From the NCBI GenBank assembly GCA_964473325.1, contig CAYYOG010000003.1, forward strand, positions 10,478 through 74,477: a stretch of DNA of 64,000 bases, written 5' to 3'. Origin of the DNA: an uncultured Thermotogae bacterium. Its GTDB lineage: Bacteria; Bipolaricaulota; Bipolaricaulia; RBG-16-55-9; DRXL01. The notes under the pieces were generated by a model that saw nothing but the letters and a program-made list of their open reading frames with translations, had not been told where the DNA came from and searched no databases. A program made the translations under genes and the position numbers. Positions 892-54,823 of this stretch are shown one piece after another (position 1 is the first letter of the stretch; the number at the start of each line of letters is the position of its first letter).

Positions 892-982
892 AGTTAAGCC
901 CCCTTGTTTCTTTAGCGTTGGACCCATTATACCGAACTCTGTTGGTGACCGCTGCTGTCACTTTCTCAAGGGACACAGTCCT

Positions 983-1193
983 GTGGAAAACCTGTGGATA
1001 AAGCTGTGGAAAACCTGTGGATAACCTGTGGATAACTCCCCTCAGCTGACTTTTCCACAGGAGTTTTCCACAGGATTTCCACAGGTTTTCCACAGGGTTT
1101 TCCACAGCCCGACATTTGTATAGTATGTTCTCTTTTTGATGTTCTTAAAAATAAAAAGCGTCGACTGACCGGTCGGTCGAAAAGTTTTCCACA
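983..1193. promoter_or_regulatory. Array of 11 DnaA-box-like 9-mers (TTWTCCACA): 5 in one orientation at exactly 11-bp spacing (983, 994, 1005, 1016, 1027), 5 inverted (1051, 1064, 1075, 1086, 1098), plus one at 1185; candidate oriC DnaA-binding region
   Basis: Direct reading: tgtggaaaa / tgtggataa x5, then ttttccacag / atttccaca x5. All are within 1 mismatch of TTATCCACA/TTTTCCACA. The two blocks form a dyad around 1036-1050. Confidence 0.6.
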
Positions 1194-1260
1194 GGTTTTG
1201 GTCCCCTCTACTACTACTAGAGTATATATACTAAGTATTGTAGTAGTAGAGAACCGGCAG
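1107..1260. repeat. AT-rich tract containing a 46-bp near-perfect palindrome (ctctactactac-N22-gtagtagtagag at 1206-1251, with a perfect AGTATATATACT core) and a GTCGAC...GACCGGTC...GTCGAC palindrome (1159-1180); possible DNA-unwinding element
   Basis: Inverted repeats verified by reverse-complementing the arms. The region is markedly more AT-rich than its flanks. Confidence 0.5.
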
Positions 1261-18314: not shown

Positions 18315-18404
18315 GTGGGCTCCCCCAGCATTTGCCCAATGACTCTGTGCTGTTCGCCTTGGCCGGCCTCTGGCTGGCCAAGATAAACGTCAAGGGAAAC
18401 TTGC

Positions 18405-18481
18405 TGGTGCGCCCGGTGCGATTTGAACGCACGACCTGCGGTTTAGGAAACCGCCGCTCTGTCCAACTGAGCTACGGGCGC
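18405..18481 (-). tRNA. tRNA-Arg (anticodon CCT), CCA encoded
   Basis: Manual cloverleaf: acceptor GCGCCCG/CGGGCGC, D-arm GCTC-AGTTGGACA-GAGC, anticodon stem GCGGT/ACCGC with loop TTCCTAA, T-arm GTGCG-TTCAAAT-CGCAC. Confidence 0.85.
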
Positions 18482-21485: not shown

Positions 21486-22093
21486 ACGAACCTCCTCCTT
21501 TCTCTAAGTGTGTGTGTTGTGCAGCAATCTCTTTGTGTGAAAAGCCTAACAGCCCCCAGATCATCAAGGGCACAAGCCAGTCCCCACTGAAGAGCTGGCC
21601 CCCTGTGCCAAATATGCCTTCTACGACGTTACACCCAACGTTGTCTGGATCATGATAGACGCATATCTCAGCGTGAGTGATAGTGATAGCTGAGAGCGCG
21701 TGTACTCCTAGCAATACCAGCATTCCCATATATCCCCCGGCCCAAGAATCTCTAAGCACGTGCGCTCCGGCTCAGATCCCCACTCACAGACGAGCTGCCC
21801 ACGGCAGATCGCAAAGAGTCCCCCTTATGGGGATTCAGAAACTCTTCGGGGTCGTTATAGAGCTCAGGTGGCGGAAGCTTGGTAGTATCCAGCCCCTCCA
21901 GGAGGCAGTCCTTGCTGCACACCGAAGCATGGGTCATGCCCAGTCCCTCCCCGCCTTGGCATTATTATACTCTTCATTGCTTATGTCCTGACAGTTTGTC
22001 AACAAAAGCGCGAAAAGATCGCGAATCTTAGGGCAGGGCAGGGCCTTGACACCCTCTTGCCCTCTTTTCGCGAAAGCCATACAATAGCGTTGC

Positions 22094-35433: not shown

Positions 35434-36981
35434 ATGAAGACCGCGCGAGAAGCCCTCGTGCAGACACTCAAGAAGAACAAGATCGCGCTTGTGACGGGCA
35501 TCTACGGCGACCCTTGTACTGCGTTGTTAGACGAGTGCGCCAAGCAAGGGCTGCACGTCGAGATCAGCACGGAAGAGAAAGTCGCGTTTGCCCAAGCGTT
35601 GGGTACTTCTGTAGCAGGCTTGCCCAGCGTCGTCATCGTCAAGCAAGTCGGGATCAACGTCTTAGCTGATCCATTAGTGACAGCGGTAACGCACGGGATC
35701 GGCGCGGGGCTCTTACTGATAGCTGGGGACGATCCTGGCGCCGCTAAATCCCAAAACGAGCAAGACTCGCGCTGGTACGCCAAGCTTGCTCATATGCCCG
35801 TCTTGACACCACCTGGCCCGCAGTACGTCAGCGATGCTGCGATTGAGGGTCTTCAATTGTCGGGGACGTTAGGCATCCCGGTGATGATGCAGGTGACGGC
35901 GCGCTTGCTCGAGGGCGAGGGCCGCCCTAGCGAGATGCCCCTCACCGTCGAAGCCCGATTTGACCGAGATCGCGCGTGGAAGAACCTCATCTTGGATCGC
36001 TATAAGTATTACTATCAGAAGATCTACCCTCAGCTCTGCGAGCTCGTCGAAGACTCGCCCTTGACAGTTCTCAGTTCTGAGTTTGACAGTTCCCGGTTCA
36101 ATGTAAAACAGGGAACTCAGAACTTAGAACTCTCCCGCGGCGTCGTCTCTTGTGGGTTTGTCTCGACGCTCGTTACCGAGAAGAATCACTTCGCATTGGG
36201 GTATGCGCATCCATTGCCGGAGCGGGCCTTGGTGAGCTTTTTGAAAAACTTAGAGCGCGTGCTGGTCGTCGAAGAGATCGCGCCGATTGTCGAAGAGTCC
36301 GTGAATGCGCTGATAGCACGGCATGGGTTAAAAACAAAAGTCTTTGGGCGGCTGACAGGGCATCTGCCTAGAATCGGGAAGTTAGAAGCGCAGCACATAG
36401 CTGAAGCCTGGGGGCGCAGCGGCGGTGAGCTCCATCTTGATATCCCCACCCAGGTGAGCGGGGGGATCTTAGACCTGCCCTGCGGGGGCTTTGAGCTGCT
36501 CTATCAGGTCTTAGATGAGGTCTTGCCTGAGGGATATTTCGTCGCGGGCGACGTAGGCTGTTCTATTCTGCACGGGTATTTCCCGCCGCAAATAATTGAC
36601 ACGGCGTATGCGTTGGGGACGTCTATTTCAACGGCAGCGGGGATGAGTCTTGCTGGGCGCAAAGGCATAGCGATCATAGGGGACACGGGGTTTATCCATT
36701 CGGGGATCACGGGTCTGTTGAACGCCGTCGAGCACAAGCACAATGTCTTGGTGATCGTTCTCTATAATAAATTTTCAGCGATGACGCCGGGGGCCCAGCC
36801 CATACCAGGGCTGGAGCGGCTGCGGGTGTTAGTCGAGGCTTGCGGCGCAGACGCCGTAGATGAAATTCAGATGGAACAGGCTTCTGAAGACGAGCTGAAG
36901 CGCCTGTTGGAGAGGCGTTTAGAGGAGCGCGGGGTGCACGTGCTGATTGCCCACGCCAAGCCAAAAAAGTTGCACGAATGA
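35434..36981 (+). CDS. Indolepyruvate/2-oxoacid ferredoxin oxidoreductase alpha-subunit-like TPP enzyme, lacking the usual 4Fe-4S ferredoxin insert
   Basis: N-terminal POR-like domain, C-terminal TPP-binding region GDVGCSILHG…IIGDTGFIHSGITGLLNAVEHKHNVLVIVLYN; GAGGTGA SD. Contains an in-frame copy of the GTTTGACAGTTC repeat element at 36061-36135. Confidence 0.6.
   Translation: MKTAREALVQTLKKNKIALVTGIYGDPCTALLDECAKQGLHVEISTEEKVAFAQALGTSVAGLPSVVIVKQVGINVLADPLVTAVTHGIGAGLLLIAGDDPGAAKSQNEQDSRWYAKLAHMPVLTPPGPQYVSDAAIEGLQLSGTLGIPVMMQVTARLLEGEGRPSEMPLTVEARFDRDRAWKNLILDRYKYYYQKIYPQLCELVEDSPLTVLSSEFDSSRFNVKQGTQNLELSRGVVSCGFVSTLVTEKNHFALGYAHPLPERALVSFLKNLERVLVVEEIAPIVEESVNALIARHGLKTKVFGRLTGHLPRIGKLEAQHIAEAWGRSGGELHLDIPTQVSGGILDLPCGGFELLYQVLDEVLPEGYFVAGDVGCSILHGYFPPQIIDTAYALGTSISTAAGMSLAGRKGIAIIGDTGFIHSGITGLLNAVEHKHNVLVIVLYNKFSAMTPGAQPIPGLERLRVLVEACGADAVDEIQMEQASEDELKRLLERRLEERGVHVLIAHAKPKKLHE
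36061..36135. repeat. Copy of the short dispersed repeat (core GTTTGACAGTTCyCAGTT, with internal inverted repeat) lying in-frame inside a CDS
   Basis: ttgacagttctcagttctgagtttgacagttcccggttc…gggaactcagaact shares 25/27 nt with 40572-40600 and ~20 nt with 40643-40663. Confidence 0.6.
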
Positions 36982-37085: not shown

Positions 37086-39209
37086 ATGAGCCATCGAAGG
37101 ATCTTCGCAGCTCTTCTTATAGGGGTTATTGTCGGCTTCCTTGGTCAACAGTCAGTAACCCACGCGGCTTCTGTACGCGACGTCGTTATCAGCGAGGTCG
37201 CGTGGATGGGCACGCAAGCGAGTGCCAATGACGAGTGGATCGAGCTGTATAATAACACTGATTATGATATCGATCTGACGGGATGGAAGCTCCAAGCTGA
37301 AGACGGCACGCCTACTATCGTGCTCTCCGGGATTATCCCCGCCCACGGGTTCTTTCTGTTGGAGAGAACTGATGATAATACTGTCAGTGACATCGCTGCT
37401 GATCTTGTCTACGGCAATGATGGATCTAGTTGGGCGTTGAGCAATAGCGGCGAGAAGCTCTTGCTGAAAGACTCAAACAATATTGTCATAGACACAGCCA
37501 ATGGCAATGGCGGCCCCTGGCCCGCCGGAACTGCCTCACCAAGAGCAACAATGGAACGGATTGATCCCACAGCTCCCGACTCTGACGCAAACTGGGATAC
37601 CAACGACGGTGTCCATCGCAATGGGCTTGACGCGAATAATAATCCCATCAACGGCACACCGAAAGCCCCGCGCCAGCGCGCGTCTTACAATGCCCGTGAC
37701 GTCGTGATCAGCGAGATCGCGTGGATGGGGACAGAAGCTAGTGCCAACGATGAATGGATTGAGCTCTATAACAATACTGATCGCGCGATTAGTCTTGTGT
37801 GGTGGCGCTTAGAAGCAGCTGATGGGGTGCCCTCAATAGTGCTCTCTGGTACCATCCCTGCGCGCGGGTTTTTCTTGCTGGAGCGCACCGACGACAGCAC
37901 AGTCAGCGACATTCCTGCCGATCAGATCTACACCGGAGCTCTCTCTAATTCTGGGGAGAGCCTGATCTTGAAAGACCCGTCGGGGAACGTCATAGACACT
38001 GCCAACGGCGACGGTGGCCCTTGGCCCGCCGGAAACGATTTCCCACGAGCAACGATGGAGCGTTTGGACTTGCTCGCTCCAGACTCAGATACGAATTGGG
38101 CGACGAATAACGGGGTCTATCGCAATGGCTTGGATGCCCAAAGTAATCCCATCAACGGCACGCCCAAGGCTCATAAGCCTCCCTATGTCACGATCATCAG
38201 TCCTAGGGCAACCGCGCCCGTGTATCTCTACCCAGGAGAGAGCTTCTCTGTCAGCTTCACTAGCGACGAAGCAGGCACTGCGGAGATCAACGTCAACGGG
38301 ACAAGCTGCGGCGGTGGAGCTATCAGCATGGGGACGAACTCTCAGCTATGCACGCTCCCTAGCCCATTTGCCCATGGCATCTATGATCTCTCTGTGACAG
38401 TCACTGACGCCACGACGACTGCTGGTACTGCAACGGCAACAGATGCGGTGCACGTGATCGTAGCAACTCTTGGTGACGTCAACGGTGACGGAAAGGTCAA
38501 CGTGATTGACGCGCGCCTAGCACAGCAGCACGCCGACGGGTTCATCACGCTCGCGGGGATACAGCTCTTAGCTGCTGACGTCGACCAAGACAGTGACGTA
38601 GACTCCGCTGACGCGACGGCGATTGCCAGGAAGGGGATTGGGCTGCCCACGGGAATCCCTTGGTTTGTGCTCGCCGTGCCCGCGTTGGCGTTCTTGCTAG
38701 TATCTCGCTGCAGAGGGTTCGCGGCACTGCTCCTCATGATGGGATTGCTAGGAACTCTGACGAGTTGCTCGGAGTTTGCGGGCCCGCCTCCGCCGTCCGG
38801 CCCCTCGCTATTTATCACTTCGACTTCGATGCCCAACGGTGCGACGCGCACGCTCGATCTGGCCGTGCAAAACGTGACGGCTCAGGGCGGCGTGGCCTCG
38901 CTCCAGGGGCGGATCACCTATCCTCCTGGGAGAGTGACGGTGCAGTCGCTCACGGGCTTGAATGGCTTCGTTGTCAAGGCATTCGTGATACATGACCGCG
39001 AGCTGCGCTTCGCTCTCGTTAAGCCTAGCCCTGGAGGGATCAGCTCCGGAATCGTCGCGCGAGTAACTCTATCAGTTTGGGGAGCGCCAGGGGACATCGT
39101 CACGCTGAGATGGGCTGCCAGCGCCCAGACACCAATAGTCATCGGCGGAGAGACGAACACGGAGGTCACAGGGCTTAGTTTTGGCGACGGCCAAGTGAAG
39201 GTACGCTAG
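37086..39209 (+). CDS. Surface protein: signal peptide, two tandem lamin-tail domains (LTD), an Ig-like region, a dockerin type-I-like double Ca-binding repeat, an internal sorting-signal/lipobox-like hydrophobic segment, and a C-terminal cohesin-like domain
   Basis: LTD repeats at aa 28-195 and 205-370 are ~75% identical (nt 37170-37650 vs 37690-38170). Dockerin loops DVNGDGKVNVIDARL and DVDQDSDVDSADATAI. Segment GLPTGIPWFVLAVPALAFLLVSRCRG-FAALLLMMGLLGTLTSCSE at nt ~38660-38760. Confidence 0.6.
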   Translation: MSHRRIFAALLIGVIVGFLGQQSVTHAASVRDVVISEVAWMGTQASANDEWIELYNNTDYDIDLTGWKLQAEDGTPTIVLSGIIPAHGFFLLERTDDNTVSDIAADLVYGNDGSSWALSNSGEKLLLKDSNNIVIDTANGNGGPWPAGTASPRATMERIDPTAPDSDANWDTNDGVHRNGLDANNNPINGTPKAPRQRASYNARDVVISEIAWMGTEASANDEWIELYNNTDRAISLVWWRLEAADGVPSIVLSGTIPARGFFLLERTDDSTVSDIPADQIYTGALSNSGESLILKDPSGNVIDTANGDGGPWPAGNDFPRATMERLDLLAPDSDTNWATNNGVYRNGLDAQSNPINGTPKAHKPPYVTIISPRATAPVYLYPGESFSVSFTSDEAGTAEINVNGTSCGGGAISMGTNSQLCTLPSPFAHGIYDLSVTVTDATTTAGTATATDAVHVIVATLGDVNGDGKVNVIDARLAQQHADGFITLAGIQLLAADVDQDSDVDSADATAIARKGIGLPTGIPWFVLAVPALAFLLVSRCRGFAALLLMMGLLGTLTSCSEFAGPPPPSGPSLFITSTSMPNGATRTLDLAVQNVTAQGGVASLQGRITYPPGRVTVQSLTGLNGFVVKAFVIHDRELRFALVKPSPGGISSGIVARVTLSVWGAPGDIVTLRWAASAQTPIVIGGETNTEVTGLSFGDGQVKVR

Positions 39210-39229: not shown

Positions 39230-40234
39230 GTGCGTACAGAGATTCTTTCTGCTAATGATGCTGGCATCGAGCGCGCGGCCCAGATCATTCGCTCTGGAGG
39301 ATTAGTTGCTTTCCCTACAGAGACCGTCTACGGCTTAGGGGCTGACGCCCTCAACGAAGACGCCGTCCGCAAGATCTTCATCGCGAAGGAGCGCCCCGTC
39401 GATGACCCGTTGATTGTTCATATTGCCCACGTACAGCAGCTGACGCTCTTGGCTCGGCATATTCCTGCAAGAGTCTGGGGTTTAGTAAAAAAGTTCTGGC
39501 CTGGCCCCTTAACGCTCGTCTTGCCCAAAACCGAAAAAGTCCCCAGCGTTACCACCGGCGAGCTGGATACAGTCGCTGTGCGCATACCCAGTCATCCTGT
39601 TGCGAGAAAGCTCATCGAACGGAGCGGCTGCCCCATCGCCGCGCCCTCAGCGAACAGATTTGGCCGTCCCAGCCCAACGACAGCTCAACACGTTCTCGAA
39701 GATTTAGACGGACGGATCGATCTTGTCTTAGATGGCGGTCCTACTCCCATCGGCGTCGAATCGACTGTCTTAGATCTGACGCAAGAGCCGCCGATGATCT
39801 TGCGTCCCGGCGGGGTGACCCTCGAAACGCTCCAAGAGATTTTGGGTGAAGTGCGCGTGCTCAGCTCTTCATCGATAGAAGCGGCGAAGCGCTCCCCGGG
39901 GACGCGCTGGCGCCACTACGCCCCGCGAGCGCCGCTTCTGCTTGCTGAGCCAACAGAGCTGGAGCAGATCGTGCGCGACTTACTCAAGGATGGGAAACGA
40001 GTTGGGGTGATGATCAGACAGAACCGTCTTCAGTGTTCTCCGGACCCTGCCGTGCTTTCCGTGATTCAAATGCCCACAGATTTTTCAGAATACGCGCGGC
40101 GGCTCTTTCGGGTGCTGCGCGAGCTTGATGCCCACGGGGTCGACGTAATCGTTGTGGAGACCGTTGAAGAACGTGGCCTAGGTCGGGCGATCATGGACAG
40201 GCTCCGCAAAGCCAGCTATAATTACTCTCCCTAA
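39230..40234 (+). CDS. tsaC: L-threonylcarbamoyladenylate synthase (Sua5/TsaC type, with Sua5 C-terminal domain)
   Basis: YrdC domain (GGLVAFPTETVYGLGADA…KERP…PLIVHI…PSAN) plus a Sua5 C-terminal domain. Confidence 0.85.
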   Translation: MRTEILSANDAGIERAAQIIRSGGLVAFPTETVYGLGADALNEDAVRKIFIAKERPVDDPLIVHIAHVQQLTLLARHIPARVWGLVKKFWPGPLTLVLPKTEKVPSVTTGELDTVAVRIPSHPVARKLIERSGCPIAAPSANRFGRPSPTTAQHVLEDLDGRIDLVLDGGPTPIGVESTVLDLTQEPPMILRPGGVTLETLQEILGEVRVLSSSSIEAAKRSPGTRWRHYAPRAPLLLAEPTELEQIVRDLLKDGKRVGVMIRQNRLQCSPDPAVLSVIQMPTDFSEYARRLFRVLRELDAHGVDVIVVETVEERGLGRAIMDRLRKASYNYSP

Positions 40235-40287
40235 CTGAAAAACTGTCAACTCGGAACTGGCTAACTCTCTTGTGGAGGTGATCGGTG

Positions 40288-40491: not shown

Positions 40492-40567
<76 letters not shown>

Positions 40568-40571
40568 ACGG

Positions 40572-40690
40572 AACAGTTCTGAGTTTGACGGTTCCCAGTT
40601 AGGTGGTTTTTATCATAGCAGAGTCTCTTGAAGCTGTCAAGGACAGCTCAGGGTTTGACAGTTCTCAGTTTCTTTATATCATAGAACTGT
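40572..40690 (+). repeat. Tandem ~65-bp duplication carrying two copies of the GTTTGACRGTTC repeat; the distal copy reads as a promoter (TTGACA 40646-40651, 16 nt, TATCAT 40668-40673) for the downstream gene
   Basis: Units 40575-40639 and 40640-40705 align at ~70% identity; both contain TTTGACRGTTC…TTATCATAG. Confidence 0.5.
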
Positions 40691-40692
40691 CT

Positions 40693-41388
40693 ATGACTGC
40701 GGAGCTGGAGGTATTGCTGGGGCTGAACCGTCACGACGCGGCGATCCGCGAGCAGACTCGCAAGATTGAAGGACTACAGCGACGTCGTGCCGCATTGATA
40801 GAAGCGATGGCGCGCGAACAGAACGAGTTTCTCGCCAAGAAACGCGCGTTTGAGGAGCTCCAGCGCCAAAGCCGTGAAAAAAGCCGTGAGGTCGACGACT
40901 TAGATGCCCAGATCCGCGCAGACACAGAAAAATTGCGCACGGGCTTGCTCAGCTATAAAGAGATGGAAGCGCTGCGCACCCGCGTGGAGCACTCCCGTAT
41001 CCGCATCGATCAGCTAGAAGACGAAGCCATCGCGTTGATCACCCAAGTGGAGCAGCAGACTCCCCTCATCCGCAAGGCTGAGGAAGACCTCCTCAAATGG
41101 AAGGCGAAGATAGATCAGGACATTGCCCAAATCGATGCGGAGATCGCTGAGCACTCTCAGGCGCTAGAGCGGCTTGAGAGGGAGCGGGCACAGCGCGCGG
41201 CTGCGGTGGAAGGCAAGCTCTTGCAGCGCTATGAGGAGCTGCGAGCGCGCTATGAGGACCCAATCGTGCCCGTTCACAATGGGGTCTGCACCGGGTGCAA
41301 CTTGCGCGTCAGCGAGATCACTGTGGAGCGCGTGCGCTATGAGATTGTCACGTGCGAGAACTGCTCCCGATTGCTGTACGTAAGGTAA
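40693..41388 (+). CDS. Coiled-coil protein with C-terminal C4 zinc ribbon (COG1579-like)
   Basis: Long heptad-rich region, then CTGCNLRVS…CENCSRLLY zinc ribbon. Start placed at ATG 40693. Confidence 0.6.
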   Translation: MTAELEVLLGLNRHDAAIREQTRKIEGLQRRRAALIEAMAREQNEFLAKKRAFEELQRQSREKSREVDDLDAQIRADTEKLRTGLLSYKEMEALRTRVEHSRIRIDQLEDEAIALITQVEQQTPLIRKAEEDLLKWKAKIDQDIAQIDAEIAEHSQALERLERERAQRAAAVEGKLLQRYEELRARYEDPIVPVHNGVCTGCNLRVSEITVERVRYEIVTCENCSRLLYVR

Positions 41389-41480
41389 CCAGACTTCGTC
41401 TGGACTGTTCGCCTTCGTCCGGTCGGACGCAGATGAAGCTCACGCACAGCGTGCAGGCGCAGTCTGGTGGGAGGGTAGCT

Positions 41481-42537: not shown

Positions 42538-42970
42538 GCGAAGAGGAGCAGAGGGCCGCCCCAGGCTCCGCCTGGACTGTACGCCTTCGCCAGCCAGAGG
42601 CTGGCGAAGATGAAGGTCAAGCGAAGCTTGTCCAGACGAAGCCTGGGGAGGAAAGTCCGGACTCCACGGGGCAGGCCGCTCGCCGCAAGGCGAGAAGGAG
42701 CGATCCTTGGAAAGTGCCACAGAGAAGAGACCGCCAGCGGCCGGCGGCACGCGCCGCCGGTGCGGGCAAGGGTGAAACGGTGGAGTAAGAGCCCACCGCC
42801 CCGCTCGCGAGAGTCGGGGGCACGGCAAACCCCGGCCGGAGCAAGACCAAGTAAGGGCGCGTCTGAGAGTGGCCCGCTCGAATCGTGCCCGGGTAGGTCG
42901 CAGAGAGAGATGGCCCTCACCGACTCTTGGACAGAGTCGGCACAGAATCCGGCTTATGCTCCTCTTCTTT
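42538..42970 (+). ncRNA. rnpB: RNase P RNA, bacterial type A, with an extended (~95-nt) P3 helix
   Basis: Conserved regions read directly: GGAAAGTCCGGACTCC, AGGGTGAAACGGTGGAGTAAGAGCCCACC, ACAGAATCCGGCTTAT; P1 gaagaggagca/tgctcctcttc; P2 gagggcc/ggccctc. TATAAT at 42526-42531 lies 6 nt upstream of the 5' end. Confidence 0.9.
42561..42646. repeat. ~86-nt palindromic element forming the rnpB P3 extension; a second copy lies in hypF at 53880-53952
   Basis: Shares caggctccgcctgg…cttcgccagccagaggctggcgaag…gtccagacgaagYctgg with 53880-53952. Terminal inverted repeats and a central hairpin cttcgccagc-cagag-gctggcgaag. Confidence 0.7.
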
Positions 42971-43081
42971 TTTGTTCTTTGACGAACCGGGCGCTATCGG
43001 ATAGAATATTCTTTGGCGATGGAGTCCGCCGTCAACCGTCCGGGCACGTCGGACTGATGACTCCTACCTAAGACTCTTCAT

Positions 43082-52495: not shown

Positions 52496-54823
52496 TCACC
52501 CCTTACAGTGTGACGCGGCCACGATCTGTCCCAGTGCGATCCCGCCGTCGTTAGGCGGAACCCGTTGATGCCAGTAGACGCGAAAGCCCTCTGCGCGCAG
52601 CCGCGCGGCCGCTCGCTCAGTCAGATATTTATTCTGAAAGCATCCCCCGGTCAGCACAACTCGTCCTTCTCCGACACGCCGCGCCACAGCGATGATCATC
52701 TCTACCAAAGTATTGTGAAACTTCGCGGCTATCTTACCAACTGAAACGCCGTCGCGCACATCTCTGATAATGCTGAGGAGCATCGGTTCCCAGTCGAGCA
52801 CCTCGTGAGAGAGAGCGAACTCATAACTCTCGTCTGTCTCCATCCCGTGTAGGGCAAACTCGAGCTCCATCGCGGCTTGGCCCTCAAAGCGACTGATTTG
52901 TCGAAGCCCGACTAAAGAAGCAGCAGCGTCGAAGAACCGCCCAGCGCTCGATGTTGTGGGGCTATTTAGATTCTTTTGCAGCATTGTGAGCAAGGGCTTC
53001 AGCTCGTGCTCTGGGAAGCTCTGAACTGGGGCGAGATCGGCGCACTCGCGGGCCAGCGCGTCGCCGAAAAGCTCGTAGAGCACGCCGAGCGCTGCGCGTC
53101 GTGGCTCCTTGATCGCGTGCTCGCCCCCGGGGAGACGAAATGTCCGTAGATGGGCAACTCGTCTGAACGACTCTCGCGTAGCTAAGAGAAATTCTCCACC
53201 CCAGATTGTGCCGTCGAGCCCGTAGCCCGTCCCGTCCCACGAGACCCCCAAGACCGAGCCGTCCAGCTCGTTCTCCGCCATGCACGCCAACACATGGGCA
53301 TAATGATGCTGGACTCCAACTTTGGGAAGATCGCGTTGCTGCGCGTACTTTGTCGAAAGATACTCCGGGTGCAGATCATGGGCGATCACCGACGGACGGG
53401 CTTCGTAGAGGAGTTCAAAATCGCGAATGACTCTCCCAAACGCGCTGAACGCTTCGGCGGTCTCTAAGTCTCCGATGTGCTGGCTGATGAAGACGTTGGA
53501 GCTGACCGAGAGCGCCATGGTGTTCTTGAGATGTGCGCCGACGGCGAGGACGGTTCTGGGTTCAGAGCTCGTAGTTTCCAGTGTGATAGGCAGCGGCGCG
53601 TACCCGCGGGCGCGGCGCAACACCAGCTCCCGTCCCGCGACTATACGTACGATTGAGTCGTCGACATGGCGCGCGATAGGGCGATTGTGCACCAGAAAGA
53701 GATCAGCGATTTTATTAAGCTTTTGTAGTGCCTCGCGCTCGTCGGTGCAGATGGGCTCGTCGGAGAGATTGCCGCTGGTAGCAACGATGGGGAAGCCGAG
53801 CTCAGCCATCAACAAGTGATGGAGCGGCGTGTAGGGCAACATGATACCGAGATAGGGATTGCGCGGGGCAACGGAGGGACCAGGCTCCGCCTGGTCCATA
53901 CATCTTCGCCAGCCAGAGGCTGGCGAAGGCGTACGGTCCAGACGAAGTCTGGGCAGCAGCACAATCGGCGCCTCTGGGGACGTTAACAAGCGTTCTTCTA
54001 GTTCGGAGACTTCGCAATGGGCTGTGATAAGTTCTAGCGACGGATACATGAGCGCAAACGGCTTCTCTTCGCGGTGCTTGCGCTTGCGTAACTCTTGCAC
54101 GGCGTCGTCGTTGCGGGCATCGCAGATCAAGTGAAACCCGCCCAAGCCCTTGACGGCAACGATCTGTCCATTGCGAATCGCTTCGGCAGCTTTATACAAT
54201 GCGTCGTCATGTTGGGCGAGCACCCTGCCCTGGCGATCCCATAGTTCCAAGTGTGGCCCGCACACAGGGCACGCATTGGGCTGCGCATGAAAGCGCCGAT
54301 TCGAAGGGTCTTCGTATTCGGCTTGGCAGTCGGGGCACATTCTGAAGATCTTCATGGTCGTGTTCGGGCGATCATAGGGCAGGGCTTCAATAATAGAGAA
54401 GCGCGGGCCGCAGTTTGTACAGTTTGTAAACGGATAGCGATAGCGTCGGTCGTTGGGGTCAAAGATCTCGCGCAGGCAGTCGGGGCAGGTCGCAATATCT
54501 GGGAGAATAAACGCTGTCTTCTGGCCTGACTCATCGCTATGGCGAATTTCAAATGCTGTGTAGCCGACAGGGTCGAGCCACACGGACTCCAAGCTCTGAA
54601 TAAACGCGCGCGGGGGCTTGTCGCGCTCGAGTCTGCGCAAGAATTCTTCGAGTTGCTCTTTGGGCCCTTCAGTTTCGATGAAGACGCCCTGAGCAGAATT
54701 GAGCACCCAGCCCGTCAGTTTTAGCTCTGTGGCAAGACGATAGACGAACGGGCGGAAGCCCACCCCCTGCACTGCCCCGTGGATCGTGACCTTAAGGCGT
54801 ACCGCGTGCTCTCTCATGGCCAC
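52496..54823 (-). CDS. hypF: Carbamoyltransferase HypF (contains a ~25-aa in-frame insert encoded by the palindromic element at 53880-53952)
   Basis: Acylphosphatase domain (VQGVGFRPFV), two CxxC…CxxC zinc fingers, YrdC-like and Kae1-like domains (…GGCFQN…). The insert LRLDRTPSPASGWRRCMDQAEPG falls between the YrdC-like and Kae1-like domains. Confidence 0.9.
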   Translation of the reverse strand: MAMREHAVRLKVTIHGAVQGVGFRPFVYRLATELKLTGWVLNSAQGVFIETEGPKEQLEEFLRRLERDKPPRAFIQSLESVWLDPVGYTAFEIRHSDESGQKTAFILPDIATCPDCLREIFDPNDRRYRYPFTNCTNCGPRFSIIEALPYDRPNTTMKIFRMCPDCQAEYEDPSNRRFHAQPNACPVCGPHLELWDRQGRVLAQHDDALYKAAEAIRNGQIVAVKGLGGFHLICDARNDDAVQELRKRKHREEKPFALMYPSLELITAHCEVSELEERLLTSPEAPIVLLPRLRLDRTPSPASGWRRCMDQAEPGPSVAPRNPYLGIMLPYTPLHHLLMAELGFPIVATSGNLSDEPICTDEREALQKLNKIADLFLVHNRPIARHVDDSIVRIVAGRELVLRRARGYAPLPITLETTSSEPRTVLAVGAHLKNTMALSVSSNVFISQHIGDLETAEAFSAFGRVIRDFELLYEARPSVIAHDLHPEYLSTKYAQQRDLPKVGVQHHYAHVLACMAENELDGSVLGVSWDGTGYGLDGTIWGGEFLLATRESFRRVAHLRTFRLPGGEHAIKEPRRAALGVLYELFGDALARECADLAPVQSFPEHELKPLLTMLQKNLNSPTTSSAGRFFDAAASLVGLRQISRFEGQAAMELEFALHGMETDESYEFALSHEVLDWEPMLLSIIRDVRDGVSVGKIAAKFHNTLVEMIIAVARRVGEGRVVLTGGCFQNKYLTERAAARLRAEGFRVYWHQRVPPNDGGIALGQIVAASHCKG
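53880..53952. repeat. Second copy of the palindromic element, in-frame within hypF
   Basis: ccaggctccgcctggtccatacatcttcgccagccagaggctggcgaaggcgtacggtccagacgaagtctgg; matches rnpB 42561-42646 apart from internal indels. Confidence 0.7.

What the first reader, a model, noticed from the sequence alone, without database searches (positions are those of the whole stretch)
36061..36135. Second short repeat family (core GTTTGACAGTTCyCAGTT with an internal hairpin) lying in-frame inside the IorA-like gene
A ~75-nt segment inside CDS 35434..36981 (encoding …PLTVLSSEFDSSRFNVKQGTQNLELSRG…) is highly similar to intergenic sequences at 40572-40600 (25/27 nt) and 40643-40663. It contains its own inverted repeat (agttctgagtt…aactcagaact; gttccc…gggaac). 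A TTGACAGTTT motif also occurs in a palindrome at ~21985-22000. Together with the rnpB/hypF element this makes two distinct miniature elements that tolerate in-frame residence in coding sequence.
Basis: seen in the sequence. Interest (0 to 1): 0.6.

Follow-up and report, generated by a model that had tools for sequence, protein, structure and literature searches.

The report
Hairpin repeat translated inside an enzyme
A 75-base hairpin-forming repeat, also found next to nearby tRNA genes and promoters, sits in-frame in a flexible linker of a thiamine-dependent enzyme of an uncultivated Bipolaricaulota bacterium. This is a new example of the known habit of small bacterial repeats living inside genes, here with unusually well-conserved stems.

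Summary
Window 36061-36135 belongs to a real repeat family: 5 matches to the 18-mer core against 0.05 expected, 25/27 identity to 40574-40600, and a stable hairpin (RNA -38.7 kcal/mol, z -4.8). Alignment of 47 homologues shows the 24-residue peptide is lineage-specific. It replaces a ~9-residue inter-domain linker and occurs only in the window organism and two near relatives. Other Bipolaricaulota carry different palindromic inserts at the same site.

The arms are arrays of degenerate 7-8-nt units (CAGTTCY, and RGAACTG on the other arm). Family members lie in a tRNA-Ala leader, after tRNA-Pro, in the Sua5-DUF6800 spacer, upstream of argS, and in-frame in two other genes (a Memo-like protein and a TetR-TetR fusion). 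In three intergenic copies TTGACA falls where a -35 box would; the IorA copy has no -10 box.

Copy number is low: one to three exact matches per contig or MAG sampled, none in viral contigs. Between 84%-identical orthologues (pS 0.50) the two arms are the longest identical stretches of the gene, and all four substitutions fall on unpaired bases. So the hairpin, not the peptide, appears constrained.

Verdict: a new member of the in-frame palindromic-repeat kind (RPE-like). How it spreads and what it does are unknown.

The parts
35434..36981 (+). Host gene: a 515-aa IorA-like thiamine-diphosphate enzyme (Pyr domain, middle domain, PP domain). It is not a true IorA equivalog.
   Evidence: Pfam TPP_enzyme_N and TPP_enzyme_C. 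TIGR03336 IOR_alpha scores 274.6 bits against a cut-off of 650.9. Foldseek matches acetolactate-synthase-type ThDP enzymes. pN 0.057 and pS 0.50 against the L083 orthologue, so the gene is under purifying selection.
36061..36135 (+). The in-frame hairpin repeat element, translated as TVLSSEFDSSRFNVKQGTQNLELS.
   Evidence: Absent from all orthologues except P0001 and P0002. In the AF2 model it lies in the loop between helix 189-209 and strand 238-243, with pLDDT about 52 and <50 at residues 227-232.
36061..36098 (+). Left arm: five degenerate heptamer/octamer units (CAGTTCT CAGTTCT GAGTTTGA CAGTTCC CGGTT) with two TTGACAG motifs at 36061 and 36083.
   Evidence: It is 100% identical in the 84%-identical orthologue L083, as part of a 43-nt identical run 36052-36094.
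36099..36110 (+). Terminal loop and inner mismatch. This is the only part that varies between orthologues.
   Evidence: Substitutions at 36095, 36099, 36104 and 36110 (L083) and 36103 (L082, L132) all fall on unpaired positions of the MFE structure. Three of the four L083 changes are non-synonymous.
36111..36135 (+). Right arm: three inverse units (GGGAACT CAGAACT TAGAACT) followed by CTC.
   Evidence: It lies in a 34-nt identical run 36111-36144 with L083, the second longest of the gene.
40232..40275 (+). Half-element in the opposite orientation: five AACYS units (starting TAACTGA, whose TAA is the Sua5 stop codon). It forms the 5' UTR of the DUF6800 gene (ATG 40288).
   Evidence: The orthologous spacers of L083 and L130 carry the full palindrome. 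A promoter-like site TGGACA-17-TATAAT lies at 40194-40222.
40572..40600 (+). Copy between tRNA-Ala and its promoter. Its reverse complement is the predicted 5' leader of the tRNA-Ala transcript.
   Evidence: Conserved in L035 and L130, shorter in L129, absent in L131. The minus-strand promoter-like site TTGACA-17-TATGAT is at 40640-40612.
40643..40691 (+). Copy whose TTGACA (40655-40660) is the predicted -35 of the CT398-like gene (TATCAT 40677-40682, ATG 40693). It contains the 9-bp inverted repeat GACAGTTCT/AGAACTGTC.
   Evidence: Absent at the orthologous place in L129, and replaced by a different repeat in L130.
40492..40567 (-). tRNA-Ala(GGC), flanked by the repeat.

Best explanation
Window 36061-36135 is a copy of a low-copy repeat family restricted to one Bipolaricaulota lineage. 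Each arm of the family is a short array of degenerate 7-8-nt units: CAGTTCY on one arm and RGAACTG on the other, often with TTGACAG embedded. The two arms pair into a long hairpin.

Shown: in the common ancestor of the window organism and two close relatives, a copy replaced the native ~9-residue linker between the Pyr domain and the middle domain of an IorA-like ThDP enzyme.

Inferred: the copy was probably templated from a sibling element such as the one in the Sua5-DUF6800 spacer 4 kb downstream, by template switching, gene conversion or an unidentified trans-acting enzyme.

Shown or directly read from the sequence: the copy persists because its length keeps the frame, this orientation has stop codons in only one of three frames, and it lies in a hypervariable, low-confidence surface loop that also accepts unrelated palindromic inserts in other lineages. 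The peptide (TVLSSEFDSS...) is a passenger.

Inferred from one orthologue pair: what is conserved is the nucleic-acid hairpin, about 26 bp and -38.7 kcal/mol as mRNA. It is most likely kept as an RNA structure affecting mRNA stability, processing or translation through the domain boundary. It is neither a promoter nor an intrinsic terminator at this site. Elsewhere, family members do supply -35 boxes, 5' leaders and intercistronic or tRNA-flanking hairpins.
For: The family is real: 5 matches against 0.05 expected, 25/27 and 22/27 identities, and 3 heptamer arrays in 64 kb against 0.06 in shuffles.

The segment is an insertion or replacement. In alignment A1 only P0001 and P0002 share the peptide, and the basal linker is about 9 aa. 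The DNA of the empty site (L131) and of a differently filled site (L130) is shown.

It is present in five independent assemblies: the window, L133, L082, L132 and L083.

The hairpin is stable, with z -4.8 as RNA and -4.05 as DNA. Sibling elements also fold strongly, with z from -3.9 to -5.5.

The element aligns end to end with the Sua5-DUF6800 spacer element of L083, with 28/28 identity in the left arm.

The site is a permissive loop: pLDDT is about 52, between H189-209 and E238-243.

The host gene is functional: pN 0.057 against pS 0.50.

The constraint is at the nucleotide level. Against L083 (83.6% nt identity) the two arms are the two longest identical runs of the gene (43 and 34 nt; the next longest is 24). 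The chance of no change in the 59 arm bases is about 3e-5 at the gene's average rate. All 4 substitutions hit unpaired bases, and 3 of them change the amino acid.

Other in-frame hosts, in the same reading frame (SSEFDSSQF), are the Memo-like gene and the TetR-TetR linker.

Between the orthologous tRNA-Pro hairpins of L034 and L098, the right-arm differences all give U.G wobbles. This hints at pairing in RNA.
Against: No mechanism of spread is shown. There is no target-site duplication, no transposase or IS with matching ends, and the linker was replaced rather than simply interrupted.

Copy number is very low for a mobile element. There are 1-3 exact matches per related MAG or contig in the genome and metagenome scans, and none in viral contigs. 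Several copies sit at orthologous positions across species, which fits conserved cis-elements as well as old insertions.

The inference of stem constraint rests on essentially one diverged orthologue pair, with no compensatory change. One near-identical relative (L132) has a T>C change at a helix-end pair.

The Memo-like in-frame copy has no partner arm, and its peptide varies among orthologues, so not every copy is constrained.

No function of the hairpin was tested. There is no -10 box and no T-run at the IorA copy, and no Rfam family matches.
Confidence: 0.72

Rival explanations
1. A purely neutral passenger. The element is a dead copy of a selfish or accidental repeat with no present role at DNA, RNA or protein level, and the identical arms in the two lineages reflect chance or a local mutational cold spot.
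For: The loop is low-confidence. The site accepts unrelated inserts in other lineages, and these can be partly deleted again (P0012 compared with P0003). No promoter or terminator lies at the site. Only one diverged comparison is available.
Against: The two arms are the longest identical runs in a gene with pS 0.50. All 4 substitutions avoid paired bases, while the loop diverges by about 25%. Hairpin-forming DNA is normally mutation-prone rather than cold (general knowledge).
Confidence: 0.25
2. A protein-binding array or internal promoter. The CAGTTCY units with TTGACAG would be operator or -35 sites for a regulator or RNA polymerase, and the IorA copy would be an intragenic regulatory site.
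For: TTGACA of three intergenic copies lies 16-17 nt upstream of -10-like hexamers: 40655-40682 in the window, L083 9228-9256 and L130 10497-10525. The 8-nt bulge TTGACAGT is also unchanged between orthologues. The phased 7-8-nt units resemble the TAACTGA arrays proposed as binding sites (PMC4679880).
Against: There is no -10 box at the proper distance in the IorA copy in any of the 3 variants. The argS-upstream and tRNA-Ala copies have no usable -10 spacing, by reading. Orientation relative to transcription differs between loci. No binding protein is known.
Confidence: 0.12
3. Origin in place by slipped-strand expansion of a heptamer. Similar sequences would have arisen independently at each locus without any copying between loci.
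For: The units are 7-8 nt and their number varies between orthologous loci: the tRNA-Pro flank in L017, L034 and L098, and the tRNA-Ala leader in L129 compared with the window. Two perfect tandem CAGTTCT units lie at 36065-36078.
Against: Stretches of 25-28 nt that include the non-periodic GAGTTTGACAG are identical between unrelated loci, and whole elements align end to end. The basal linker DNA shows no seed heptamer.
Confidence: 0.07
4. Chance resemblance to a -35-like motif, or a native conserved peptide segment.
For: The core contains TTGACA.
Against: 0.05 matches are expected by chance against 5 found. The peptide is absent from all but two of 47 homologues. The family recurs at 8 or more locus types in relatives.
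Confidence: 0.02
5. A phase-variation switch. Gain or loss of one 7-nt unit would shift the frame into the TGA of GTTTGACAG and turn the enzyme off reversibly.
For: Two perfect tandem heptamers are present. Heptamer tracts drive phase variation in other bacteria (titles and abstracts of PMC8262952 and PMC12721329, listed).
Against: All five assemblies have the same unit number and an intact frame. Two units is too short a tract for frequent slippage (general knowledge).
Confidence: 0.03

Closest known systems
Rickettsia palindromic elements (RPE; Ogata et al. 2000, as tabulated and discussed in PMC3184786)
   Same: A short palindromic repeat found both between genes and fused internally, in-frame, into otherwise conserved protein genes. 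It is translated as an extra peptide at a tolerant site, and several host genes are affected in one lineage.
   Different: RPEs are 105-146 bp, are far more numerous per genome (from my own recollection, not checked here), and occur in Alphaproteobacteria. This element is about 75 nt and very low copy, its arms are arrays of 7-8-nt units, and some copies coincide with promoters. Sequence similarity to RPEs was not examined.
TAACTGA heptamer direct repeats of Beggiatoaceae, Cyanobacteria and Bacteroidetes, and cyanobacterial STRR heptamers (MacGregor 2015, PMC4679880)
   Same: Phased 7-nt units with an AACTG core. In forward orientation they lie just upstream of start codons and overlap the stop codon of the upstream gene; here, TAACTGA at 40232 supplies the Sua5 stop ahead of the DUF6800 gene. 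Only the reverse orientation (..CAGTT..) is found inside ORFs. The mechanism of spread is unknown.
   Different: Those are exact tandem TAACTGA copies, with 169 sets in one genome, and are almost all direct repeats. Here the units are degenerate (CAGTTCY, GAGTTTGA), the period is 7-8, there are 3-5 units, and opposed arrays pair into hairpins. There are only a few loci per genome, in a different phylum.
Promoter-bearing MITEs such as Neisseria Correia elements and ERIC (PMC3184786)
   Same: Hairpin-forming inverted-repeat elements that can supply promoter hexamers, are co-transcribed with neighbouring genes and can alter mRNA stability.
   Different: Correia elements have defined terminal inverted repeats and a TA target duplication, and occur in hundreds of copies (the last two from my own recollection, not checked here). 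Here there is no target duplication, no related IS is known, and copy number is low.
REP/BIME elements with RAYT transposases
   Same: Imperfect palindromes at gene ends and intercistronic junctions (for example L118 2660-2730), forming RNA hairpins.
   Different: This family is not G+C-rich, has no GTAG-type head, is not confined to extragenic space and is not abundant. RAYT genes were not searched for.
BRE (Bordetella) and the RUP, BOX and SPRITE repeats of pneumococcus, fused into ORFs (PMC3184786)
   Same: Small repeats whose open frames fuse with or extend host ORFs. Here, the Sua5 protein of L130 ends at the TGA inside the element.
   Different: Unrelated sequences and hosts; those are mostly terminal fusions rather than internal linker replacements.

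Membership tests
In-frame palindromic repeat (RPE-like kind) | The same DNA repeat occurs in non-coding DNA and inside ORFs | tested here: met
   Intergenic copies at 40232-40275, 40572-40600 and 40643-40691. ORF copies in the IorA-like gene, the Memo-like gene (L056, L105, L118) and the TetR-TetR fusion (L127).
In-frame palindromic repeat (RPE-like kind) | The insert is absent from orthologues, and the host ORF stays intact and under purifying selection | tested here: met
   Only 2 of 47 homologues share it; pN/pS is about 0.11.
In-frame palindromic repeat (RPE-like kind) | The insert lies at a structurally tolerant surface site | tested here: met
   The AF2 loop has pLDDT about 52 between H189-209 and E238-243. 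The column is hypervariable in length across homologues. This is a model, not a solved structure.
In-frame palindromic repeat (RPE-like kind) | Sequence homology to the named RPE families | not tested
   No RPE sequences were available in the tools. No Rfam family matched.
MITE | Terminal inverted repeats | tested here: met
   The arms 36061-36098 and 36111-36135 pair over about 26 bp.
MITE | Target-site duplication flanking the insert | tested here: not met
   Comparison of the empty and filled sites shows replacement of 27 nt. Only an imperfect CTCGCCC/CTCTCCC resemblance lies at the ends.
MITE | A parent IS or transposase with matching ends | not tested
   No whole genome was available and the window ORFs were not screened for transposases. 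The viral-contig scan found no members.
MITE | Many dispersed copies, with presence/absence polymorphism between close relatives | tested here: inconclusive
   Presence/absence is seen at 4 loci. However, there are only 1-3 exact core matches per related MAG or contig and no further arrays in 178 kb of related loci.
REP/BIME | Short G+C-rich palindrome with a conserved GTAG-type head, in hundreds of extragenic copies | tested here: not met
   The sequence is A+T-rich relative to its host gene, has no GTAG head, is low copy and occurs inside ORFs.
TAACTGA / STRR heptamer repeats | Tandem units of exactly 7 nt | tested here: inconclusive
   Unit starts are spaced 7, 7, 8, 7 (left arm), 7, 7 (right arm) and 8, 7, 7, 8 (40233-40267). 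The units are degenerate, and only two are identical in tandem.
TAACTGA / STRR heptamer repeats | The unit sequence is TAACTGA | tested here: not met
   One literal TAACTGA occurs at 40232-40238. The family consensus is CAGTTCY/RGAACTG with an embedded TTGACAG.
TAACTGA / STRR heptamer repeats | Forward arrays immediately upstream of start codons; only the reverse orientation inside ORFs | tested here: met
   AACYS arrays lie ahead of the DUF6800 gene and ahead of the glutaminyl-cyclase gene in L118. All ORF copies are in the CAGTT orientation. The comparison is with PMC4679880.
Sigma-70-type promoter | A -35 and a -10 hexamer separated by 16-18 nt | tested here: not met
   None in 35900-36300. 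The feature is met for the copy at 40655-40682 and for L083 and L130.
IorA (TIGR03336 equivalog) for the host gene | Score above the curated cut-off | tested here: not met
   274.6 bits against 650.9, covering model positions 9-527 of 595. 'IorA-like' is the correct wording.

The most novel reading that the evidence does not exclude
The heptamer-array hairpin is not junk but a selected cis-acting module of this Bipolaricaulota lineage. It would be recognised as RNA (or DNA) by a dedicated binding protein or RNase and deployed at promoters, tRNA leaders and trailers and intercistronic junctions. It would also sit deliberately inside ORFs at domain boundaries, for example to pause ribosomes or to set mRNA processing. 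This would be a hairpin analogue of the proposed TAACTGA regulatory network, and it would explain why unrelated hairpin repeats recur at the very same linkers of the IorA-like and Memo-like genes.
Probability: 0.17. Interest if true: 0.7.

Novelty: new member of a known kind. Interest (0 to 1): 0.45.

Why it matters
The finding shows that an uncultivated, deep-branching phylum (Bipolaricaulota, formerly Acetothermia/OP1) carries small hairpin repeats that become part of conserved enzymes. This habit is best known from Rickettsia. At least three unrelated repeat families do it here: the CAGTTCY family, a G+C-rich CCCCTCCC...GGGGAGGGG family, and the rnpB/hypF family. They repeatedly hit the same inter-domain linkers in different lineages.

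For annotators, this explains the lineage-specific length variation and low-complexity peptides in these proteins.

For evolution, it offers a natural experiment on which protein sites tolerate insertions. The invariant stems suggest that a coding-region hairpin can come under selection of its own.

The heptamer-array architecture also links the palindromic repeats to the unexplained TAACTGA/STRR heptamer repeats of other phyla.

Tried and rejected
1. Genome-wide census by exact pattern. The scan of 185,579 species genomes gave 81 hits. About 76 have no flanking similarity to the family, close to the roughly 140 matches I estimated by hand for chance. Only L017, L034, L035, L049 and L056 are members, and the window genome itself is not in that collection. 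The metagenome scan gave 45 hits, about a dozen of them members. A true copy number per genome could therefore not be obtained.

2. The viral-contig scan gave 13 hits, none with flanking similarity, so there is no sign of a phage origin.

3. Literature search for the motif found nothing relevant. A search for Bipolaricaulota plus repeats found nothing specific.

4. Rfam, at gathering and at E<=1 thresholds, has no family for the element.

5. Promoter or terminator inside the IorA copy: none.

6. I first read the tRNA-Pro elements of L034 and L098 as a pseudoknot or alternative-hairpin (attenuator) arrangement. Folding shows ordinary long hairpins in a shifted register, so I dropped that reading.

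7. I considered a compensatory T>C / A>G change between L083 and L130 in the Sua5 spacer. The MFE uses another register in which the change is a U.G wobble, so it is not counted as covariation.

8. A LexA-box or other operator reading of GAAC/GTTC spacing was tried by eye only. No known spacing fits.

9. The 21990 palindrome is not a family member.

10. A census of in-frame copies by searching the peptide (SSEFDSSQF) was judged infeasible, because about 20 bits against 5.8 billion sequences is too weak. It was not run.
Full report
**1. Observation.**
Window 36061-36135 reads cTTGACAGTTCTCAGTTCTGAGTTTGACAGTTCCCGGTTCAATGTAAAACAGGGAACTCAGAACTTAGAACTCTCC. It lies in-frame in the ORF 35425/35434..36981 and is translated as ...PLTVLSSEFDSSRFNVKQGTQNLELSRG....

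- The 18-mer core GTTTGACAGTTCYCAGTT has five matches at <=3 mismatches (36059, 36081, 40583, 40653 on +; a weak one at 40248-40265 on -), against 0.05 expected.
- The repeat finder gives 36072-36098 vs 40574-40600 at 25/27 and vs 40644-40670 at 22/27 (family D8).
- The segment folds into a long imperfect hairpin: RNA -38.7 kcal/mol, z -4.79; DNA -20.7, z -4.05.
- The palindrome near 21990 (TGACAGTTTGTCA) shares only about 9 nt and is not a member.

**2. Anatomy.**
The arms are not arbitrary inverted repeats. They are short arrays of degenerate 7-8-nt units.

- Left arm: CAGTTCT CAGTTCT GAGTTTGA CAGTTCC CGGTT, with unit starts at 36065, 36072, 36079, 36087 and 36094.
- Right arm: GGGAACT CAGAACT TAGAACT.
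- A scan for >=4 such words in 40 nt finds three arrays in the 64 kb, against 0.06 in shuffles. They are the IorA left arm, the tRNA-Ala spacer (40557-40614), and an array in the opposite orientation at 40216-40281.
- That last array, TAACTGAAAAACTGTCAACTCGGAACTGGCTAACTC, begins with the TAA stop of Sua5 and forms the 5' UTR of a small DUF6800 gene.

All window copies lie within 4.7 kb (36.06-40.69 kb).

**3. Organism and host gene.**
Homologues are named Candidatus Bipolaricaulota or Bipolaricaulia.

- The host protein has TPP_enzyme_N and TPP_enzyme_C domains.
- It scores 274.6 bits on TIGR03336 IOR_alpha, far below the 650.9 cut-off.
- Its AlphaFold model (pLDDT 83.9) matches three-domain ThDP enzymes such as acetolactate synthase.

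'IorA-like' is the right wording. The gene is under purifying selection, with pN 0.057 and pS 0.50 against the L083 orthologue.

**4. The segment is a lineage-specific insertion or replacement.**
In a 48-sequence alignment, the site after the conserved EDSPL and before GV(I/V)SCGF is hypervariable.

- Distant bacterial and archaeal homologues, and basal Bipolaricaulota, have about 8-9 residues there (for example HQIRQENGA).
- Only P0001 (99% identical) and P0002 (90%) share the window's peptide.
- Many other lineages carry different inserts of 5-30 residues at the same place.
- At the DNA level, the basal L131 has 27 nt where the window has about 72 nt. L130 has instead a G+C-rich double palindrome, CCCCTTCCCTAAAGGGAAGGGG...CCCCTCCCTCTTCAGGGGAGGGG.
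- In the structure model the insert is the low-confidence loop between helix 189-209 and strand 238-243. This is the linker from the Pyr domain to the middle domain (pLDDT about 52; <50 at 227-232).
- The insert is present in five independent assemblies, so it is not an assembly artefact.

**5. The family elsewhere.**
Exact-pattern scans of species genomes and metagenomes returned mostly hits with no flanking similarity to the family. They also returned a consistent set of members in Bipolaricaulota-type contigs:

- directly after tRNA-Pro(CGG) in L034/L101/L108, L098 and L017;
- the orthologous tRNA-Ala leader in L035 and L130;
- the Sua5-DUF6800 spacer, as a full palindrome in L083 and L130 and as the right half only in the window, L082 and L129;
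- between an upstream gene and argS in L049 and L125;
- as a compact intercistronic hairpin ahead of a glutaminyl-cyclase gene in L118;
- in-frame in two further genes.

The two further in-frame hosts are these. In the AmmeMemoRadiSam protein B (Memo-like) gene, the peptide is ...SSKFDSSQL / SSEFDSSQF..., in a loop that is again hypervariable and that carries other palindromic inserts in other lineages. In L127, a complete element lies in the linker between the two halves of a TetR-TetR fusion, giving SSEFDSSQFDSSDKLKTDELRTVK; the protein has two TetR_N domains.

Full elements fold strongly, with z from -3.9 to -5.5. The IorA element aligns end to end with the Sua5-DUF6800 spacer element of L083, including 28/28 identity in the left arm.

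Copy number is low. There are 1-3 exact core matches per related MAG or contig. No further arrays occur in 178 kb of related loci, and there are no members in viral contigs.

**6. Promoter question.**
Three intergenic copies place TTGACA at a -35 position:

- window 40655-40682, TTGACA-16-TATCAT, ahead of the CT398-like gene whose ATG is at 40693;
- L083 9228-9256 and L130 10497-10525, both TTGACA-17-TAATAT, ahead of the DUF6800 gene.

The copy at 40572-40600 lies, in reverse complement, between the predicted tRNA-Ala promoter (minus strand, 40640-40612, TTGACA-17-TATGAT) and the tRNA. It would therefore be transcribed as its leader.

The IorA copy has no -10 box and no terminator. Promoter activity is thus a property of some copies, not of the family or of this copy.

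**7. What is conserved.**
The window and L083 genes are 83.6% identical.

- The two longest runs of identity in the whole gene are 36052-36094 (43 nt) and 36111-36144 (34 nt). These are the two arms; the next longest run is 24 nt.
- The four substitutions (36095, 36099, 36104, 36110) all fall on unpaired positions of the predicted structure, and three of them change the amino acid.
- The single change in L082 is also in the loop.
- One very close relative, L132, has a T>C change at the last pair of a helix.
- At the gene's average divergence, the chance of no change in the 59 arm bases is about 3e-5.

The constraint is therefore on the nucleotides of the stems, not on the peptide. Orthologous copies are also more alike than paralogous copies within the window (36/36 against 25/27 and 22/27). 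That argues against homogenisation by gene conversion.

Between the orthologous tRNA-Pro hairpins of L034 and L098, the right-arm differences all yield U.G pairs. This is a hint, no more, that pairing matters in RNA.

This inference rests on few lineages and includes no compensatory change.

**8. Explanation.**
Most likely this is an in-frame copy of a low-copy hairpin repeat that replaced a permissive inter-domain linker. It is translated as a floppy loop and retained, at least in part, for its nucleic-acid structure.

- Shown: family membership, insertion or replacement, in-frame tolerance, loop location, stability of the hairpin, and invariance of the stems.
- Inferred: the source (a neighbouring sibling element), the mechanism of copying (template switching, gene conversion or an unknown enzyme; no target duplication), and any present role of the hairpin (mRNA stability, processing or translation pace).

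The rivals are given with their tests in the rival-explanations section: a neutral passenger, a protein-binding array or promoter, heptamer expansion in place, and a phase switch.

**9. Comparison with known systems.**
In kind, this is closest to the Rickettsia palindromic elements and to other repeats fused internally into ORFs (review PMC3184786).

In architecture, it recalls the TAACTGA/STRR heptamer repeats (PMC4679880). Those share the AACTG core, the position just upstream of start codons overlapping an upstream stop, and the rule that only the reverse orientation occurs inside ORFs. They differ in being exact direct repeats, very abundant, and not hairpins.

The element fails the tests for REP/BIME. 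It meets only the inverted-repeat criterion of MITEs. No Rfam family matches.

**10. Verdict.**
It is a new member of a known kind, in an undescribed family and phylum.

Two points deserve follow-up: the nucleotide-level conservation of a coding-region hairpin, and the recurrent use of the same protein linkers by unrelated hairpin repeats across Bipolaricaulota.

Interest is moderate (0.45).

Noticed in passing
L130 5694-7259 (IorA-like gene, insert near residues 212-240); L125 4256-6121 (argS, residues about 290-305): A second, G+C-rich hairpin repeat (CTCCCCTCCCTCTTCAGGGGAGGGGnnGGGGGAGAGGT) is in-frame at the same IorA-like linker in another lineage. It is 36/38 identical to an in-frame insert in arginyl-tRNA synthetase of a further lineage. 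Peptides of the same type (..SPPSSGEGxGER..) also fill the Memo-like loop in P0133, P0139 and P0146. Two unrelated repeat families have therefore hit the same two protein loops.
   Followed up: partly
window 53880-53953 (inside hypF, 52496..54823, minus strand); also 42560-42612 (abutting rnpB 42605-42972), 41389-41437, 18334-18384 (next to tRNA-Arg 18405-18481): The other window repeat family (CTTCGCCAGCC-AGA-GGCTGGCGAAG hairpin with CCAGGCTCCGCCTGG flanks) does lie in-frame in HypF (peptide ..RLDRTPSPASGWRRCMDQAEPGP..) and overlaps the 5' end of the RNase P RNA match. A related copy replaces the CAGTTCY element in the tRNA-Ala/CT398 spacer of L130.
   Followed up: partly
window 970-1205: A dense cluster of about ten DnaA-box-like 9-mers (TTATCCACA / TGTGGATAA and variants) in two inverted arrays. 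This is probably the chromosomal replication origin.
   Followed up: no
window 43006-43073: A fluoride riboswitch (56 bits) lies 34 nt downstream of the RNase P RNA gene on the same strand.
   Followed up: no
window 37176-38170 (gene 37086..39209): The lamin-tail-domain/dockerin protein gene contains an internal duplication of about 504-519 nt (75-84% identical), giving two LTD copies.
   Followed up: no
window 21990-22003: A perfect operator-like palindrome TGACA-GTT-TGTCA lies in an intergenic stretch downstream of an A+T-rich segment. It is unrelated to the repeat family and its function is unknown.
   Followed up: no
L022/L111 (Vicinamibacterales), L001 (Saprospiraceae), L095 (metagenome): Among the otherwise unrelated hits to the core, a few unrelated phyla carry long arrays of CAGTTnn heptamers with inverted AACTG arrays nearby. 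CAGTT-type heptamer hairpin arrays may therefore be a wider, unnamed class.
   Followed up: partly
L130 10497-10500; L083 9217-9219; window 40232-40234: The Sua5 stop codon is supplied by the repeat in three species in three different ways: the TGA inside GTTTGACAG, a TAG just before the left arm, and the TAA of TAACTGA. The element therefore sets the C-terminus of the upstream protein.
   Followed up: yes
L056 1297-3804 (minus strand): The radical-SAM partner gene next to the Memo-like gene is 835 aa, far longer than usual, with a middle section that looks like an intein-type insertion. This was not verified.
   Followed up: no
window 40693 (CT398-like gene start) relative to the -10 box at 40677-40682: The predicted transcription start would leave a leader of only about 4-6 nt with no Shine-Dalgarno sequence, so the mRNA would be nearly leaderless. 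The same geometry is seen in L129 and L130.
   Followed up: no
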